DNA of 64,000 nt, from the sequence record PX421306.1. One strand, given 5' to 3'. Position 1 is the first letter of the stretch, and every line of letters begins with the position of its first letter. The notes under the pieces were generated by a model, which worked only from the letters and a program-made list of their open reading frames with translations, was not told the DNA's origin and made no database searches. This stretch comes from a phage. The position numbers were made by a program, and so were the translations under genes. Positions 14,544 to 16,604 of this stretch are shown here, one piece after another.

Positions 14544-15017
14544 TTATTTGATTTGTTTAGCAGACCAAATGCGGTCTTTGATGATTTTTTGGATGTCTTC
14601 AACATACTCTAGGTCATGAGCATGTGGGTTATCTTTGAAACTATAAGCACGAGCTAGTTTTTGGCCTTCAGTTTTGATTACTAAAAGCTCTTTAAGGATA
14701 GCTTCATATTTAGCGATAATTCCTTTAACAATATTTTTTTCTTGTGCAGCTTTAGGATCTGCTTTAGGAGCAGGTTTACCCGAAGCCTTTGCAAAAGCAG
14801 CACCAGTAGCAACTAAACTTTTCCAGGCCATACTAACCGCATTTCCTGTAAATCCTTCTGCTTTCATGTCGCGAGCAAACTGGAATCGTGATTCGTCAGA
14901 AGCATCTTTATAGGAATATTTACCCGCTGCAATGGCTGCTTTTGCGACAGCTTGAATTTCGGTGCTAGATGCTTCATTTAACACCGCTTCATTTAAAAAT
15001 TGAGCATATGATTTCAT
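14544..15017 (-). CDS. internal-protein-like capsid-targeted protein
   Basis: 157 aa; N-terminal MKSYAQFLNEAV leader of same type; Ala/Lys-rich body. Confidence 0.7.
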   Translation of the reverse strand: MKSYAQFLNEAVLNEASSTEIQAVAKAAIAAGKYSYKDASDESRFQFARDMKAEGFTGNAVSMAWKSLVATGAAFAKASGKPAPKADPKAAQEKNIVKGIIAKYEAILKELLVIKTEGQKLARAYSFKDNPHAHDLEYVEDIQKIIKDRIWSAKQIK

Positions 15018-15064
15018 CTTATTTCCTGTTTTAATTCGTGATTTAATATACTACTATATTTATA

Positions 15065-15094
15065 CTAAAAAGCCCCAACCTTTCGGTCGGGGCT
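15065..15094 (-). terminator. intrinsic terminator
   Basis: Same AGCCCCGACCGAAAGGTTGGGGCT hairpin + U-run, upstream of the IP-like gene. Confidence 0.65.
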
Positions 15095-15097
15095 AAG

Positions 15098-15240
15098 CCT
15101 TGCGGCAACCTTGTCGGGGTTCCACCTGCTAAGGCAAGTGTTTGTACGAAACGCCGGGATTCGAACCCGGTTATTAAGCAGTTGACGCTACTTAATATTT
15201 TTAAAAGGCCATATCTCGACCATATCCGAACGTTCCGTCA
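15098..15240 (-). ncRNA. tRNA-like stable RNA candidate
   Basis: Perfect T-arm-like CCGGGTTCGAATCCCGG (minus strand, 15154-15170) with pairing 7-nt acceptor-like strands, but non-canonical D/anticodon region; boundaries approximate. Confidence 0.3.
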
Positions 15241-15405
15241 AAAACGCTACTCGGCTTACGGCAAAGATATTTCCTCGAATCGATAATTCGGTGCGCCGTT
15301 TCTGCTGTGATGTAAGAGGGCATCAACAAATCATAAAGATTTATTAACACAATTCCTTACCCAGGGAACATCAGTCCGACGACTTACCGGTAGCGACCCG
15401 GTTTC

Positions 15406-15756
15406 TTAATATTCTTTTAAAGCATCAATCTGTTCACGGCGTTTACGCCATAAATCAATTGCTTCATACGCAGATTCAGCATTTCGAATTGGACGGCATT
15501 TATATAAAGACTTATGATTTTGATATTGTGTAGATAACGGAATTTTATCTAAAAGGTCTTTACGTTCAAAGTATTCGTAACCATCTAAGCCAAATGAACG
15601 ATTTTTGAGAAATTGCCAATGACCGTATTCGTTTTCGACATAAACATAATCTGCGTGCTGATAAAGCAAATTAATTACGCGTTCAGAAATAACAGTGTCA
15701 TTATGATTAAAATAGAATGTTAAATCATGAACTACTAAATAAACATTACCTTTCAT
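15406..15756 (-). CDS. hypothetical protein within tRNA region
   Basis: 116-aa ORF between tRNA-Arg and the tRNA-like element. Confidence 0.5.
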   Translation of the reverse strand: MKGNVYLVVHDLTFYFNHNDTVISERVINLLYQHADYVYVENEYGHWQFLKNRSFGLDGYEYFERKDLLDKIPLSTQYQNHKSLYKCRPIRNAESAYEAIDLWRKRREQIDALKEY

Positions 15757-15772
15757 ATTTTCCTCACTTAAT

Positions 15773-15848
15773 TGGTCGAGGCAGTAGGGATCGAACCTAC
15801 GACCTAGGACTTAGAAGGTCCTTGCTCTTCCTTCTGAGCTATGCCTCG
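15773..15848 (-). tRNA. tRNA-Arg (anticodon UCU)
   Basis: Hand-folded cloverleaf: acceptor CGAGGCA/TGCCTCG, D-stem GCTC/GAGC, anticodon loop CUUCUAA, T-loop TTCGATC, encoded CCA. Confidence 0.8.
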
Positions 15849-15852
15849 GATT

Positions 15853-15927
15853 TGGCGGACGTGATAGGATTCGAACCTATAACCAATCGCTTAACAGGCG
15901 ATCGCTCTGCCATTGAGCTACACATCC
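15853..15927 (-). tRNA. tRNA-Asn (anticodon GUU)
   Basis: Hand-folded: acceptor GGATGTG/CACGTCC, anticodon loop CUGUUAA, T-loop TTCGAAT, encoded CCA. Confidence 0.7.
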
Positions 15928-15931
15928 AAAT

Positions 15932-16018
15932 TGGTGGGGAGTGATGGAGTCGAACCACCCGAGTCGCAATGACAATGGATTTACAGTCCACACCGCTACC
16001 TCTACGGGATAACTCCCC
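15932..16018 (-). tRNA. tRNA-Tyr (anticodon GUA), long variable arm
   Basis: Hand-folded: acceptor GGGGAGT/ACTCCCC, anticodon loop CUGUAAA, long variable arm, encoded CCA. Confidence 0.7.
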
Positions 16019-16031
16019 TTAATTCTTAATT

Positions 16032-16106
16032 TGGTGGCCCTGGGTGGAATTGAACCACCATCTGGCGATTATGAGTCGCTTGCTTGAACCTTCCAGCTAC
16101 AGGGCC
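16032..16106 (-). tRNA. tRNA with CAU anticodon (Met or lysidine-modified Ile)
   Basis: Hand-folded: acceptor GGCCCTG/CAGGGCC, anticodon loop CUCAUAA, T-loop TTCAATT. Confidence 0.7.
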
Positions 16107-16107
16107 T

Positions 16108-16183
16108 TGGTGCTGATTGACGGAATCGAACCGCCGACCTTCTCATTACAAGTGAGTTGCTCTACCTACTAAGCTAAATCAGC
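16108..16183 (-). tRNA. tRNA-Thr (anticodon UGU)
   Basis: Hand-folded: anticodon loop CUUGUAA, T-loop TTCGATT, encoded CCA. Confidence 0.75.
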
Positions 16184-16188
16184 AAAAC

Positions 16189-16278
16189 TGGCGGAGGCGA
16201 TAGGATTTGAACCTATGAGTCGCCGGAACGACTGCCGGTTTTCAAGACCGGTGCATTAAACCACTCTGCCACGCCTCC
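16189..16278 (-). tRNA. tRNA-Ser (anticodon UGA), long variable arm
   Basis: Hand-folded: acceptor GGAGGCG/CGCCTCC, anticodon loop CUUGAAA, long variable arm. Confidence 0.75.
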
Positions 16279-16281
16279 AGT

Positions 16282-16354
16282 CTCCATACAAGGATTTGAA
16301 CCTTGGACCTCCTGATCCCAAATCAGGCGCTCTACCAAACTGAGCTACACGGAG
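16282..16354 (-). tRNA. tRNA-Pro (anticodon UGG), CCA not encoded
   Basis: Hand-folded: D-arm TAGCTCAGTTTGGTAGAGC, anticodon loop UUUGGGA; abuts 5' end of tRNA-Ser (dimeric precursor arrangement). Confidence 0.7.
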
Positions 16355-16364
16355 TAAATTAAAT

Positions 16365-16438
<74 letters not shown>

Positions 16439-16443
16439 AAATT

Positions 16444-16530
16444 TGGTGCGAGAAGTGGGACTCGAACCCACAAGGAAATCATTCCGCAGCATTTTAAGTG
16501 CTGTGCCTTTACCAATTTGACCATTCTCGC
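16444..16530 (-). tRNA. tRNA-Leu (anticodon UAA), long variable arm
   Basis: Hand-folded: GCGAGAATGGTCAAATTGGTAAAGG..., anticodon loop CUUAAAA, T-loop TTCGAGT. Confidence 0.8.
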
Positions 16531-16531
16531 G

Positions 16532-16604
16532 CTGGGAATAAAGGACTCGAACCTTTGCATCCTGGAATCAAAATCCAGTGCCTTACCAACTTGGCTAATT
16601 CCCA
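16532..16604 (-). tRNA. tRNA-Gln (anticodon UUG), CCA not encoded
   Basis: Hand-folded: TGGGAATTAGCCAAGTTGGTAAGG..., anticodon loop UUUUGAU; directly abuts tRNA-Leu (dimeric precursor). Confidence 0.75.

What the first reader, a model, noticed from the sequence alone, without database searches (positions are those of the whole stretch)
15098..15240. tRNA-like element with a perfect T-arm but a non-canonical body
A minus-strand CCGGGTTCGAATCCCGG with a T-psi-C-type loop is flanked by 7-nt strands that can pair as an acceptor stem (CGGAACG/CGUUUCG), but the intervening 60-odd nt do not fold into standard D and anticodon arms. It sits beside the terminator at 15065-15094. It could be a stable small RNA like T4 species 1/2 RNAs, an intron-containing tRNA, or a decayed tRNA.
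Basis: seen in the sequence. Interest (0 to 1): 0.4.

Follow-up and report, generated by a model that had tools for sequence, protein, structure and literature searches.

The report
T4 species 1 RNA (rnaC) orthologue
The flagged stretch is part of rnaC, a roughly 139-base stable RNA known in T4-like phages since the 1970s; it is shaped like a tRNA with a large insert, is expected in this kind of phage, and still has no known function.

Summary
The window is a T4-like phage (Tequatrovirus). The finding covers the 3' two-thirds of rnaC (T4 "species 1" RNA), window 15145-15283 on the minus strand. It is 97.8% identical to the annotated T4 gene and in the same position: tRNA cluster, rnaD, rnaC, trailer, terminator.

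The proposed 5' acceptor strand (CGGAACG) is not the conserved partner. Across 33 distinct homologues from about ten phage genera, the 3' strand pairs with the RNA's own 5' end, and CGGAACG sits in an internal hairpin.

The covariation-supported fold has cloverleaf topology:
- a 7-bp closing stem stacked on a canonical T arm;
- a 3-bp "D stem" carrying a ~65-nt inserted hairpin domain;
- a 9-10-bp fourth arm.

The 6-nt loop of the fourth arm (CGUCAA) is exactly complementary to the tip loop of the insert (UUGACG). This pairing holds in 33 of 33 sequences, with two independent compensatory changes, so it is probably a kissing-loop lock.

In other genera the RNA sits inside tRNA arrays. It is not a decoding tRNA, an intron-containing tRNA or a pseudogene. 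I found no Rfam family for it, and the papers I could search still call its function unknown. The element itself is already known; the fold details may be new.

The parts
15145..15283 (-). rnaC (species 1 RNA) orthologue, 139 nt, with boundaries transferred from the T4 annotation
   Evidence: Aligned to the T4 misc_RNA rnaC (NC_000866 70908-71046) and the GiZh ncRNA rnaC. There are 3 differences from T4 in 139 nt. Model R1 scores 172.4 bits at 15140-15288, the only strong match in the window.
15276..15282 (-). Closing (acceptor-like) stem H1, 5' strand CGAUUCG
   Evidence: Pairs with 15147-15153. At the third pair 23 sequences have G-C and 10 have A-U. Positions 4 and 5 are U.U in 31 of 33 sequences and become U-A and C-G in Tegunavirus.
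15147..15153 (-). Closing stem H1, 3' strand CGUUUCG, directly abutting the T stem as in a tRNA. It is followed by U and then ACA where tRNAs carry CCA.
15154..15170 (-). T arm: 5-bp stem CCGGG/CCCGG and 7-nt loop UUCGAAU
   Evidence: 100% of cells are paired and two of the five pairs show compensatory changes. The middle pair is U-A in 17 sequences, G-C in 13, A-U in 2 and U-G in 1. Motif count.
15273..15275 (-). H2 5' strand AGG ('D-stem' equivalent); pairs with CCU at 15206-15208
   Evidence: Invariant and paired in 33 of 33 sequences. The D stem of tRNA-Arg aligns to it in the R1 alignment.
15213..15268 (-). Inserted hairpin domain H3-H4-H5 (H3 15265-15268/15213-15216; H4 15251-15261/15220-15229; H5 15242-15246/15231-15235).
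   Evidence: 17 of 18 pairs in H3-H5 show changes on both sides, and H5 is 100% paired. The stem sequence is entirely replaced in the type-B lineages, yet they fold the same way on their own.
15236..15241 (-). H5 tip loop UUGACG, one partner of the kissing loop
   Evidence: It is the exact reverse complement of 15182-15187. All 6 pairs are standard in 33 of 33 sequences. A-U becomes G-C in the 4 Marfavirus-type sequences, and C-G becomes U-A in the 2 Tegunavirus-type sequences. There are no one-sided changes.
15172..15197 (-). H6 ('anticodon-arm' equivalent): 9-10-bp stem (15188-15197/15172-15181) with the 6-nt loop CGUCAA (15182-15187), the other kissing partner
   Evidence: 8 of 9 stem pairs show compensatory changes and 97.6% of cells are paired. 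Kissing pairs.
15209..15210 (-). Unpaired GG just 5' of the H2 3' strand; a candidate equivalent of tRNA G18-G19 contacting T-loop positions 55-56 (15164-15163)
   Evidence: 28 sequences have G with U. The 5 sequences whose T loop is UGCAUKC have C with G instead. This reflects only one or two evolutionary events, so it is suggestive only.
15198..15205 (-). Conserved A-rich single-stranded linker UUUAAAAA between H2 and H6
   Evidence: The AAAAU core is invariant or nearly so in alignment A3.
15095..15144 (-). 3' trailer with small hairpins, lying between the mature 3' end and the terminator. It is part of the precursor, not of rnaC.
   Evidence: Conserved with T4 and GiZh. Fold. In Dhakavirus VR5 the same trailer follows rnaD directly, with rnaC absent.
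15065..15094 (-). Intrinsic terminator of the tRNA/rnaD/rnaC transcription unit
   Evidence: 10-bp stem with 7 G-C pairs, a GAAA loop and a T run. GiZh annotates a terminator at the same place. PMC2330249 states that transcription terminates after the species I RNA gene.
15290..15409 (-). rnaD (species 2 RNA) orthologue, immediately upstream in the same transcript
   Evidence: Aligned to the T4 misc_RNA rnaD. A different fold with no T arm.
15773..16604 (-). Ten-tRNA cluster on the same strand, upstream (Gln, Leu, Gly, Pro, Ser, Thr, Met/Ile-CAU, Tyr, Asn, Arg)
   Evidence: ARAGORN and Rfam.

Best explanation
The element is this phage's rnaC gene, the orthologue of T4 'species 1' RNA. rnaC is a roughly 139-nt stable non-coding RNA. 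It is transcribed as the last unit of the tRNA-operon transcript and ends at the terminator at 15065-15094.

Shown here:
- It has the topology of a tRNA cloverleaf.
- Its 5' and 3' ends form a 7-bp acceptor-like stem, with two central U.U pairs, that abuts a canonical T arm.
- A 3-bp stem in the place of the D stem carries a ~65-nt inserted hairpin domain.
- The fourth arm is a 9-10-bp hairpin.

Strongly supported: the 6-nt loop of the fourth arm (CGUCAA) pairs with the tip loop of the inserted domain (UUGACG). This locks the molecule into a compact shape and leaves no free anticodon-like loop.

Inferred:
- The acceptor/T-arm module makes the host's tRNA end-processing machinery cut the RNA out of the polycistronic precursor, just as it does the neighbouring tRNAs. 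That machinery would be RNase P or RNase E at the 5' side and exonucleases trimming back to the stem at the 3' side.
- The closed, tRNA-like fold makes the RNA nuclease-resistant, hence 'stable RNA'.
- It cannot decode. It has no 7-nt anticodon loop, and UACA stands where tRNAs have NCCA.

Most likely role, with low confidence: a tRNA mimic that occupies or titrates a factor recognising the tRNA acceptor/T-arm/elbow. The role is probably dispensable under laboratory conditions.
For: Identity:
- The window is 100% identical to Shigella phage SF2-1 over the 381-base stretch searched (15040-15420), and 679 phage records, mostly T4-like phages of enterobacteria, cover at least 80% of that stretch.
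- T4 and GiZh annotate rnaC at the aligned position. There are 3 differences from T4 in 139 nt.

Expression, shown in T4 only: a Northern blot places RNAC among the late RNAs (PMC9697503). It is co-transcribed with the tRNAs and transcription terminates after it (PMC2330249).

Fold:
- RNAalifold on 23 MAFFT-aligned homologues gives the four-way junction, with 27 of 41 pairs showing compensatory changes.
- 94.3% of cells are paired against 37-49% in the slid controls, and 0 of 500 shuffles reach the observed values.
- The same holds on 33 sequences.
- The 12 type-B sequences fold the same way when analysed alone.
- The minimum-energy fold of the window sequence has the same architecture, at -50.1 kcal/mol with z = -4.3.

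Kissing loop: 6 of 6 pairs are standard in 33 of 33 sequences, with two independent double changes and no single changes.

Cloverleaf equivalence: model R1 aligns real tRNAs end to end at 8-18 bits with the 65-nt domain deleted. For tRNA-Arg the D stem aligns to H2 and the anticodon arm to H6.

Context: in Karam-, Gelderland- and Winklerviruses the homologue lies inside tRNA arrays, about 5 nt after one tRNA and 6-9 nt before the next.
Against: - No experiment on this phage is available, and the RNA ends are transferred from the T4 annotation.
- The processing route is inferred. The annotated T4 5' end lies one base upstream of the canonical RNase P position. The 3' end lacks the RCCA that helps RNase P.
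- The closing stem carries two U.U mismatches in 31 of 33 sequences.
- In Kanagawa- and Winklervirus the T-loop consensus is lost (UGCAUKC). A factor that reads the canonical T loop therefore cannot be universal.
- The kissing pairs could form between molecules rather than within one.
- The sequences are related, so the tertiary contacts rest on only two events (kissing loop) and one or two events (GG with the T loop).
- Nothing found here identifies a binding partner. Dhaka- and Gaprivervirus do without rnaC altogether.
Confidence: 0.85

Rival explanations
1. One reading: a ~91-nt tRNA-like unit (15146-15238) closed by CGGAACG/CGUUUCG, with an aberrant body. It could be the real structure or an alternative conformer.
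For: - The two strands are complementary here, and perfectly so in Enterobacter phage CW742. 86% of cells are paired across 23 sequences.
- ARAGORN at a lowered threshold calls a 'tRNA-???' with exactly these boundaries.
- Rfam tRNA-Sec gives 17.3 bits at 15146-15238.
- Some GenBank records annotate 'tRNA-OTHER' or 'tRNA-Lys' here.
Against: - There are no compensatory changes in this helix.
- Its third pair is unpaired in 13 of 23 sequences, exactly where the terminal stem shows a G-C/A-U exchange.
- The helix is broken in Tegunavirus and absent in all type-B lineages, where that segment is replaced.
- Five of the seven bases of CGGAACG form the 3' strand of H5, which is 100% paired with compensatory changes at all five stem pairs; the other two lie in the UUGACG tip loop.
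- The best fold with this stem forced is -37.1 kcal/mol, against -50.1.
- The tRNA-Sec hit has E = 1.9, far below that family's threshold of 47 bits.
Confidence: 0.04
2. A decayed tRNA pseudogene or mere spacer in the tRNA operon, with no function of its own.
For: - It probably derives from a tRNA (cloverleaf topology).
- Its function is unknown.
- It is absent from Dhaka- and Gaprivervirus.
Against: - It is 98.7% identical between this phage and RB69, a member of a different genus.
- It is conserved across about ten genera, with 27-30 compensating pairs and invariant loops.
- The architecture is kept even where the stem sequence of the insert was replaced.
- It accumulates as a discrete RNA in T4.
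Confidence: 0.03
3. A cis-acting processing or stability module. Its job would be only to provide entry sites for tRNA-processing enzymes, or a 3' exonuclease barrier for the tRNA precursor, and the excised RNA would be a by-product.
For: - It is always co-oriented with and adjacent to tRNAs, or embedded among them.
- In T4-type phages it is the last structured unit before the terminator.
Against: - A simple hairpin or any tRNA would serve that purpose.
- The invariant loops, the kissing pair, the A-rich linker and the 65-nt domain are more than a barrier needs.
- Its position varies: at the end of the operon in T4, in mid-array in Karamvirus, and next to protein genes in Marfa- and Kanagawavirus.
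Confidence: 0.08
4. An intron-containing or otherwise functional decoding tRNA.
For: It has a T arm and an acceptor-like stem. Marfavirus homologues even encode UCCA at the 3' end.
Against: - ARAGORN, which handles introns, and Rfam tRNA and intron models find nothing.
- The insert sits in the D-loop position, not at positions 37/38.
- The 'anticodon' loop has 6 nt and is fully paired to another loop.
- The 139-140-nt RNA is itself the mature species in T4 (annotation).
Confidence: 0.01
5. Protein-coding: the short ORFs annotated as 'hypothetical protein' across this stretch in many GenBank records are real genes.
For: ORFs of 34 and 49 codons overlap the stretch. Many records annotate coding sequences here.
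Against: - The substitution pattern is one of paired compensatory changes in helices, not of codon positions.
- The ORFs are not conserved across genera, because rnaD and the flanks differ.
- The RNA is demonstrated in T4.
Confidence: 0.01

Closest known systems
Bacteriophage T4 rnaC (species 1 RNA; NC_000866 70908-71046)
   Same: 97.8% identical over all 139 nt. Same strand, same order (tRNA-Arg, rnaD, rnaC, trailer, terminator) and same loops. It is the same gene.
   Different: There are three substitutions, two of which keep the H6 pairs (A-U for G.U, and U.G for U-A). In this phage a 116-codon ORF lies between tRNA-Arg and rnaD, and tRNA-Tyr and tRNA-Asn replace segB.
Canonical tRNA (Rfam RF00005)
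   Same: Four-way junction. A 7-bp closing stem is contiguous with a 5-bp T stem and a UUCGAAU loop. There is a GG where G18-G19 would lie. The gene lies in tRNA arrays. Real tRNAs align end to end to the rnaC model.
   Different: - A ~65-nt domain sits in place of the D loop, with no 8/9 linker.
- An 8-9-nt linker replaces position 26.
- The 'anticodon' stem has 9-10 bp, with a 6-nt loop that is paired elsewhere.
- The variable region is 1 nt.
- There are two U.U pairs in the acceptor stem.
- UACA stands in place of NCCA.
- It is not detected by ARAGORN or RF00005.
tRNA-like domains of other non-decoding RNAs: the tmRNA tRNA-like domain and bacterial YrlA (Y-RNA-like) RNAs (from my own knowledge)
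   Same: In each, an acceptor/T-arm module is fused to a non-tRNA body. These RNAs are handled by tRNA-processing and tRNA-modifying enzymes.
   Different: There is no tag reading frame and no G3.U70. ARAGORN finds no tmRNA. No Rfam hit to tmRNA or YrlA appears even at E up to 10. The ends form the acceptor stem itself rather than a Ro-binding helix.
Pseudoknot I of dicistrovirus intergenic IRESs, a mimic of an anticodon stem-loop paired to a codon (from my own knowledge)
   Same: A hairpin loop in the anticodon-arm position is pre-paired to a short complementary segment of the same RNA. Here the pairing is CGUCAA with UUGACG, which contains GUC paired to GAC.
   Different: The resemblance is purely formal. 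Here there are six pairs formed loop to loop, in a bacterial phage, and no evidence of ribosome binding.
T4 rnaD (species 2 RNA)
   Same: The neighbouring stable RNA from the same precursor, also of unknown function.
   Different: The sequence and fold are unrelated, with no T arm. Its distribution is independent: rnaD occurs without rnaC in Dhaka- and Gaprivervirus, and rnaC without rnaD in Karam-, Kanagawa-, Winkler-, Teguna-, Gelderland-, Moon- and Marfavirus.

Membership tests
T4 rnaC / species 1 RNA | Sequence homology to the annotated T4 rnaC over its full length | tested here: met
   136 of 139 nt are identical to T4 and 137 of 139 to GiZh rnaC. R1 scores 172.4 bits.
T4 rnaC / species 1 RNA | Position: same strand as the tRNA cluster, 3' of it and of rnaD, and followed by the operon terminator | tested here: met
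   tRNAs lie at 15773-16604, rnaD at 15290-15409, rnaC at 15145-15283 and the terminator at 15065-15094, all on the minus strand.
T4 rnaC / species 1 RNA | Accumulates as a discrete stable RNA of about 140 nt in infected cells | not testable with these tools
   Shown for T4 only, by Northern blot in PMC9697503.
Canonical tRNA | Recognised by tRNA finders or the tRNA covariance model | tested here: not met
   ARAGORN at default settings finds none here. RF00005 gives no hit even at E up to 10. Only a lowered-threshold ARAGORN run gives a 'tRNA-???' call.
Canonical tRNA | T arm (5 bp plus a 7-nt GTTCRANYC-type loop) contiguous with a 7-bp acceptor stem | tested here: met
   T arm at 15154-15170, with covariation. 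The closing stem at 15147-15153/15276-15282 is contiguous with it but contains two U.U pairs.
Canonical tRNA | D arm of normal size and a 5-bp anticodon stem with a free 7-nt loop | tested here: not met
   A 65-nt insert sits in the D-loop position. The fourth arm has a 9-10-bp stem and a 6-nt loop paired to the H5 loop.
Canonical tRNA | 3' CCA end and aminoacylation | tested here: inconclusive
   The encoded 3' sequence is U-ACA, not N-CCA, although Marfavirus homologues have U-CCA. Post-transcriptional CCA addition and charging cannot be tested here.
Intron-containing tRNA | An intron (group I or other) interrupting the anticodon loop, giving a normal tRNA after removal | tested here: not met
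   There is no intron family hit. ARAGORN finds none. Deleting the insert in silico still yields no tRNA call. The insert lies in the D-loop position.
tRNA pseudogene | Neutral decay: loss of pairing and no conservation beyond close relatives | tested here: not met
   93-95% of cells are paired, 27-30 pairs show compensatory changes, and the RNA is conserved in about ten genera.
tmRNA | A tRNA-like domain plus a tag reading frame; detected by ARAGORN or Rfam | tested here: not met
   No tmRNA is found in the window.

The most novel reading that the evidence does not exclude
rnaC would be a self-contained mimic of a tRNA already bound to its codon. It would combine an L-shaped acceptor/T-arm/elbow module with an 'anticodon' loop permanently paired to a codon-like loop of its own inserted domain. 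GUC pairs with GAC in most lineages; this switches to GCC with GGC in Marfavirus and AUC with GAU in Tegunavirus. Such an RNA could dock on ribosomes, or on a tRNA-recognising host factor such as a tRNA-targeting defence nuclease or a processing or modification enzyme, and so modulate it late in infection. That would explain its conservation in about ten genera of T4-like phages. My evidence supports the fold but says nothing about the partner.
Probability: 0.1. Interest if true: 0.75.

Novelty: already known. Interest (0 to 1): 0.3.

Why it matters
For annotating this window the result is routine. A T4-like phage carries rnaC where T4 does, and the finding can be closed as a known gene.

Three points go beyond that.

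- **Function still open.** rnaC is one of the oldest sequenced RNAs that still has no function, according to reviews and studies from 2010, 2022 and 2025. It also has no Rfam family, so it is routinely missed, or mis-annotated as 'hypothetical protein', 'tRNA-OTHER' or 'tRNA-Lys'.
- **Testable structure.** The comparative model built here supplies concrete targets that I did not find described in the searchable literature: the cloverleaf topology with an insert in the D-loop position, the covarying 6-bp kissing loop, and a possible elbow contact.
- **Independent modules.** rnaC sits inside tRNA arrays in other genera, and rnaC and rnaD occur independently of each other. They are therefore separate modules rather than a pair.

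Tried and rejected
**Known RNA families.**
- An Rfam scan of the whole window at gathering thresholds returned only the ten tRNAs.
- A permissive Rfam scan of 14900-15800 returned only chance-level hits. The best at the element was tRNA-Sec at 17.3 bits, E = 1.9.
- ARAGORN at default settings finds nothing at the element. In-silico deletion of the insert does not turn it into a callable tRNA.

**Searches for more distant homologues.**
- Pattern scans of the viral contig collection recovered only enterobacterial T4-like contigs. The looser patterns gave mostly chance matches, and model R1 then rejected the new loci it was run on.
The pattern was too loose and most matches look like chance, so it says nothing about a cellular homologue; I did not screen these loci with R1.
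- The single metagenome scan found two further Marfavirus-type copies and no new lineage.

**Literature.** Searches for species 1 RNA, rnaC and p2Sp1 found no functional or structural study. They returned only statements that the function is unknown. The T4 genome review (PMC150520) is not held.

**Other ideas.**
It is not conserved, so I set it aside.
- I considered base-pairing of the conserved loops with outside targets. I dropped this once the two loops proved complementary to each other.

Full report
**What is in the sequence.** On the minus strand the window reads ...GACGGAACG-60 nt-CCGGGTTCGAATCCCGG-CGTTTCG-TACAAAC..., followed by a 50-nt trailer and a strong hairpin with a T run. The T arm lies at 15170-15154. 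The terminator lies at 15094-15065. The T-loop motif GGTTCRANTCC occurs nine times in the 64-kb window against 0.14 expected by chance. Eight copies are in the ten tRNA genes at 15773-16604, and the ninth is this one. ARAGORN and the Rfam tRNA model do not call a tRNA here.

**What it is.**
- The stretch 15040-15420 is 100% identical to Shigella phage SF2-1. It matches 806 phage records, and 679 of them, mostly T4-like phages of enterobacteria, cover at least 80% of it.
- The reference T4 record annotates two misc_RNAs immediately after tRNA-Arg: rnaD (species 2 RNA) and rnaC (species 1 RNA). Phage GiZh annotates an ncRNA rnaC and a terminator.
- Aligning the three loci places rnaC at window 15145-15283 and rnaD at about 15290-15409.
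- The window differs from T4 rnaC at 3 of 139 positions.
- The finding's interval therefore covers the 3' two-thirds of rnaC plus the 3' trailer.
- According to PMC2330249 (citing Broida and Abelson), T4 transcription runs through the whole tRNA cluster and terminates after the species I RNA gene, and the primary transcript is the precursor of the tRNAs and of both RNAs.
- A 2022 study detected RNAC by Northern blot as a late RNA.
- Papers from 2010, 2022 and 2025 all state that the function is unknown.

**Collecting relatives.** BLAST from this copy and from diverged copies, together with pattern scans of viral contigs, recovered homologues in these genera: Tequatrovirus, Mosigvirus (RB69, 98.7% identical), Karamvirus, Kanagawavirus, Winklervirus, Tegunavirus, Gelderlandvirus, Moonvirus and Marfavirus. 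This gave 23 and then 33 distinct sequences (alignments A3 and A4).

- In Karam-, Gelderland- and Winklerviruses the homologue lies inside a tRNA array, for example between tRNA-Trp and tRNA-Gly. It starts about 5 nt after one tRNA and ends 6-9 nt before the next.
- In Dhakavirus VR5 and Gaprivervirus TH55, rnaD is present but rnaC is missing. In VR5 the trailer and terminator follow rnaD directly.
- rnaC and rnaD are therefore independent modules.

**The fold.** RNAalifold on the MAFFT alignment A3 predicts a four-way junction.
- H1: the 5' end (CGAUUCG, 15282-15276) pairs with the 3' strand (CGUUUCG, 15153-15147).
- H2: a 3-bp stem, AGG with CCU.
- H3-H5: one long irregular hairpin.
- H6: a 9-10-bp hairpin.
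- The T arm.

Counting pairs on A3 gives 94.3% of cells paired, against 37-49% when partners are slid by one to three columns. 27 of 43 pairs change on both sides, and none of 500 column shuffles reaches the observed values. The 33-sequence alignment gives the same picture, although that alignment was fitted to the model. Twelve 'type-B' sequences have a quite different sequence in the H3-H4 region. Aligned and folded on their own, they give the same architecture. The minimum-energy fold of the window sequence alone also has it, at -50.1 kcal/mol with z = -4.3.

- In the terminal stem the third pair is G-C in 23 sequences and A-U in 10.
- The two central U.U positions become U-A and C-G in Tegunavirus, where all seven pairs are standard.
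Its third pair is unpaired in 13 of 23 sequences. It is disrupted in Tegunavirus and absent in type-B sequences.
- Five bases of CGGAACG form the 3' strand of H5, which is 100% paired with compensatory changes at all five stem pairs. The other two bases lie in the UUGACG tip loop.
That probably explains the 'tRNA-OTHER' and 'tRNA-Lys' features some GenBank records place here.

**A tertiary lock.** The H5 tip loop UUGACG (15241-15236) is the exact reverse complement of the H6 loop CGUCAA (15187-15182).
- All six pairs are standard in 33 of 33 sequences.
- Two separate lineages carry double changes: Marfavirus-type sequences have UUGGCG with CGCCAA, and Tegunavirus-type sequences have UUGAUG with CAUCAA. 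There are no one-sided changes.
- I read this as a 6-bp kissing loop that folds the inserted domain back onto H6. An intermolecular contact cannot be excluded.
- A second, weaker signal concerns the unpaired GG just before the H2 3' strand (15210-15209). It co-varies with T-loop positions 55-56. 28 sequences have G with U. The five Kanagawa- and Winklervirus-type sequences, whose T loop is UGCAUKC, have C with G. This resembles the tRNA G18-G19 contact with the T loop, but it rests on one or two events.

**Relation to tRNA.** Run without filters, the covariance model R1 aligns real tRNAs end to end at 8-18 bits with the 65-nt H3-H5 domain deleted. It picks up five of the window's ten tRNAs, as well as those of VR5. 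For tRNA-Arg the D stem falls on H2, the anticodon arm on H6 and the T arm on the T arm.

rnaC therefore has cloverleaf topology with a large insert where the D loop would be. It also has an over-long 'anticodon' stem whose 6-nt loop is sequestered, a 1-nt variable region, and UACA where tRNAs carry NCCA. Marfavirus copies do encode UCCA. It is tRNA-derived or tRNA-mimicking, but it is not a decoder, an intron-containing tRNA or a pseudogene.

**How it probably works.**
- Shown: the identity, the context and the fold.
- Inferred: the acceptor/T-arm minihelix makes the host tRNA-processing enzymes excise the RNA from the polycistronic precursor along with its tRNA neighbours. The closed fold with paired ends explains its stability.
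- Unknown: the trans-acting role. A tRNA mimic that engages a factor recognising the acceptor/T-arm/elbow is my best guess, held at low confidence.
- Against a universal T-loop reader: two genera have lost the T-loop consensus.
- One relevant lead from the literature: a 2025 evolution experiment found a convergent SNP in the neighbouring rnaD of a T4-like phage adapting to a semi-permissive host.

**Limits.**
- No transcript data exist for this phage, and the ends are transferred from T4.
- The sequences are related, so cell counts overstate the number of independent events.
- A4 is fitted to the model, whereas A3 and A7 are not.
- My searches found no homologue outside enterobacterial T4-like phages, but they were pattern-limited.
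- What I recall of the 1970s-80s work on species 1 RNA (sequencing by Paddock and Abelson, and processing studies by Apirion's group) could not be checked in the held library, and I have not used it as evidence.

**Verdict.** Its interest as a discovery is low. The covariation-backed structure and the kissing loop are useful by-products for an RNA whose function has been open for fifty years.

Noticed in passing
window 15290-15409 (-): This is the rnaD (species 2 RNA) orthologue. It is highly conserved, folds differently from rnaC and has no T arm. It occurs without rnaC in Dhakavirus VR5 and Gaprivervirus TH55. Its 3' end reads GCGCACC(G/A), like a tRNA 3' end. A 2025 paper reports a convergent adaptive SNP in rnaD of a T4-like phage (PMC12685909).
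   Followed up: partly
window 15406-15756 (-): A 116-codon ORF lies between tRNA-Arg and rnaD. It matches PHROG 3355 (unknown function, E = 1e-54) and has no Pfam hit. It is absent at this site in T4 and GiZh, so it looks like an inserted accessory gene. Its stop codon overlaps the first bases of rnaD. SF2-1 annotates it, implausibly, as 'Early E3 16 kDa glycoprotein'.
   Followed up: partly
window 15853-16018 (-): tRNA-Asn and tRNA-Tyr occupy the place where T4 has the homing-endonuclease gene segB, as described for T2L, RB1 and RB3, whose tRNA-Asn gene carries the SegB cleavage site (PMC2330249). tRNA-Tyr only just passes the Rfam threshold, at 30.2 bits against 29.
   Followed up: no
window 15095-15144 (-): The 3' trailer contains the motif CCCCGAC twice (AACCCCGACAAGG and AGCCCCGACCGAAAGG). 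The first copy could compete for the GGUUGGGG strand of the terminator. The trailer plus terminator is a conserved module that follows rnaD directly in VR5.
   Followed up: no
L024:495-644, L033:402-551, L035, L037, L358, L359 (Marfavirus-type homologues): These copies encode U-CCA at the 3' end of the closing stem, where all others have U-ACA (or U-UCA in Tegunavirus). They sit next to protein genes rather than inside a tRNA array, and GenBank annotates a 'hypothetical protein' coding sequence across them.
   Followed up: no
L003, L010, L022 (Kanagawavirus CIP9 type); L004, L026 (Winklervirus): The canonical T loop UUCGAAU is replaced by UGCAUGC, UGCAUUC or UGCAUCC while the T stem is kept. 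The upstream GG becomes CG in the same sequences. L038 has the Winklervirus-type H6 but keeps GG and UUCGAAU.
   Followed up: partly
window 14544-15017 (-): The first gene downstream of the terminator is a 157-codon ORF in PHROG 2280 (unknown function, E = 6e-60) with no Pfam hit.
   Followed up: no
window 15231-15238 versus 15275-15282 (-): The RNA holds two segments able to pair with the same 3' strand: the terminal CGAUUCG and the internal CGGAACG. In CW742 the internal one is a perfect 8-bp match. Only the terminal pairing is conserved, but a transient alternative fold during transcription is conceivable.
   Followed up: partly
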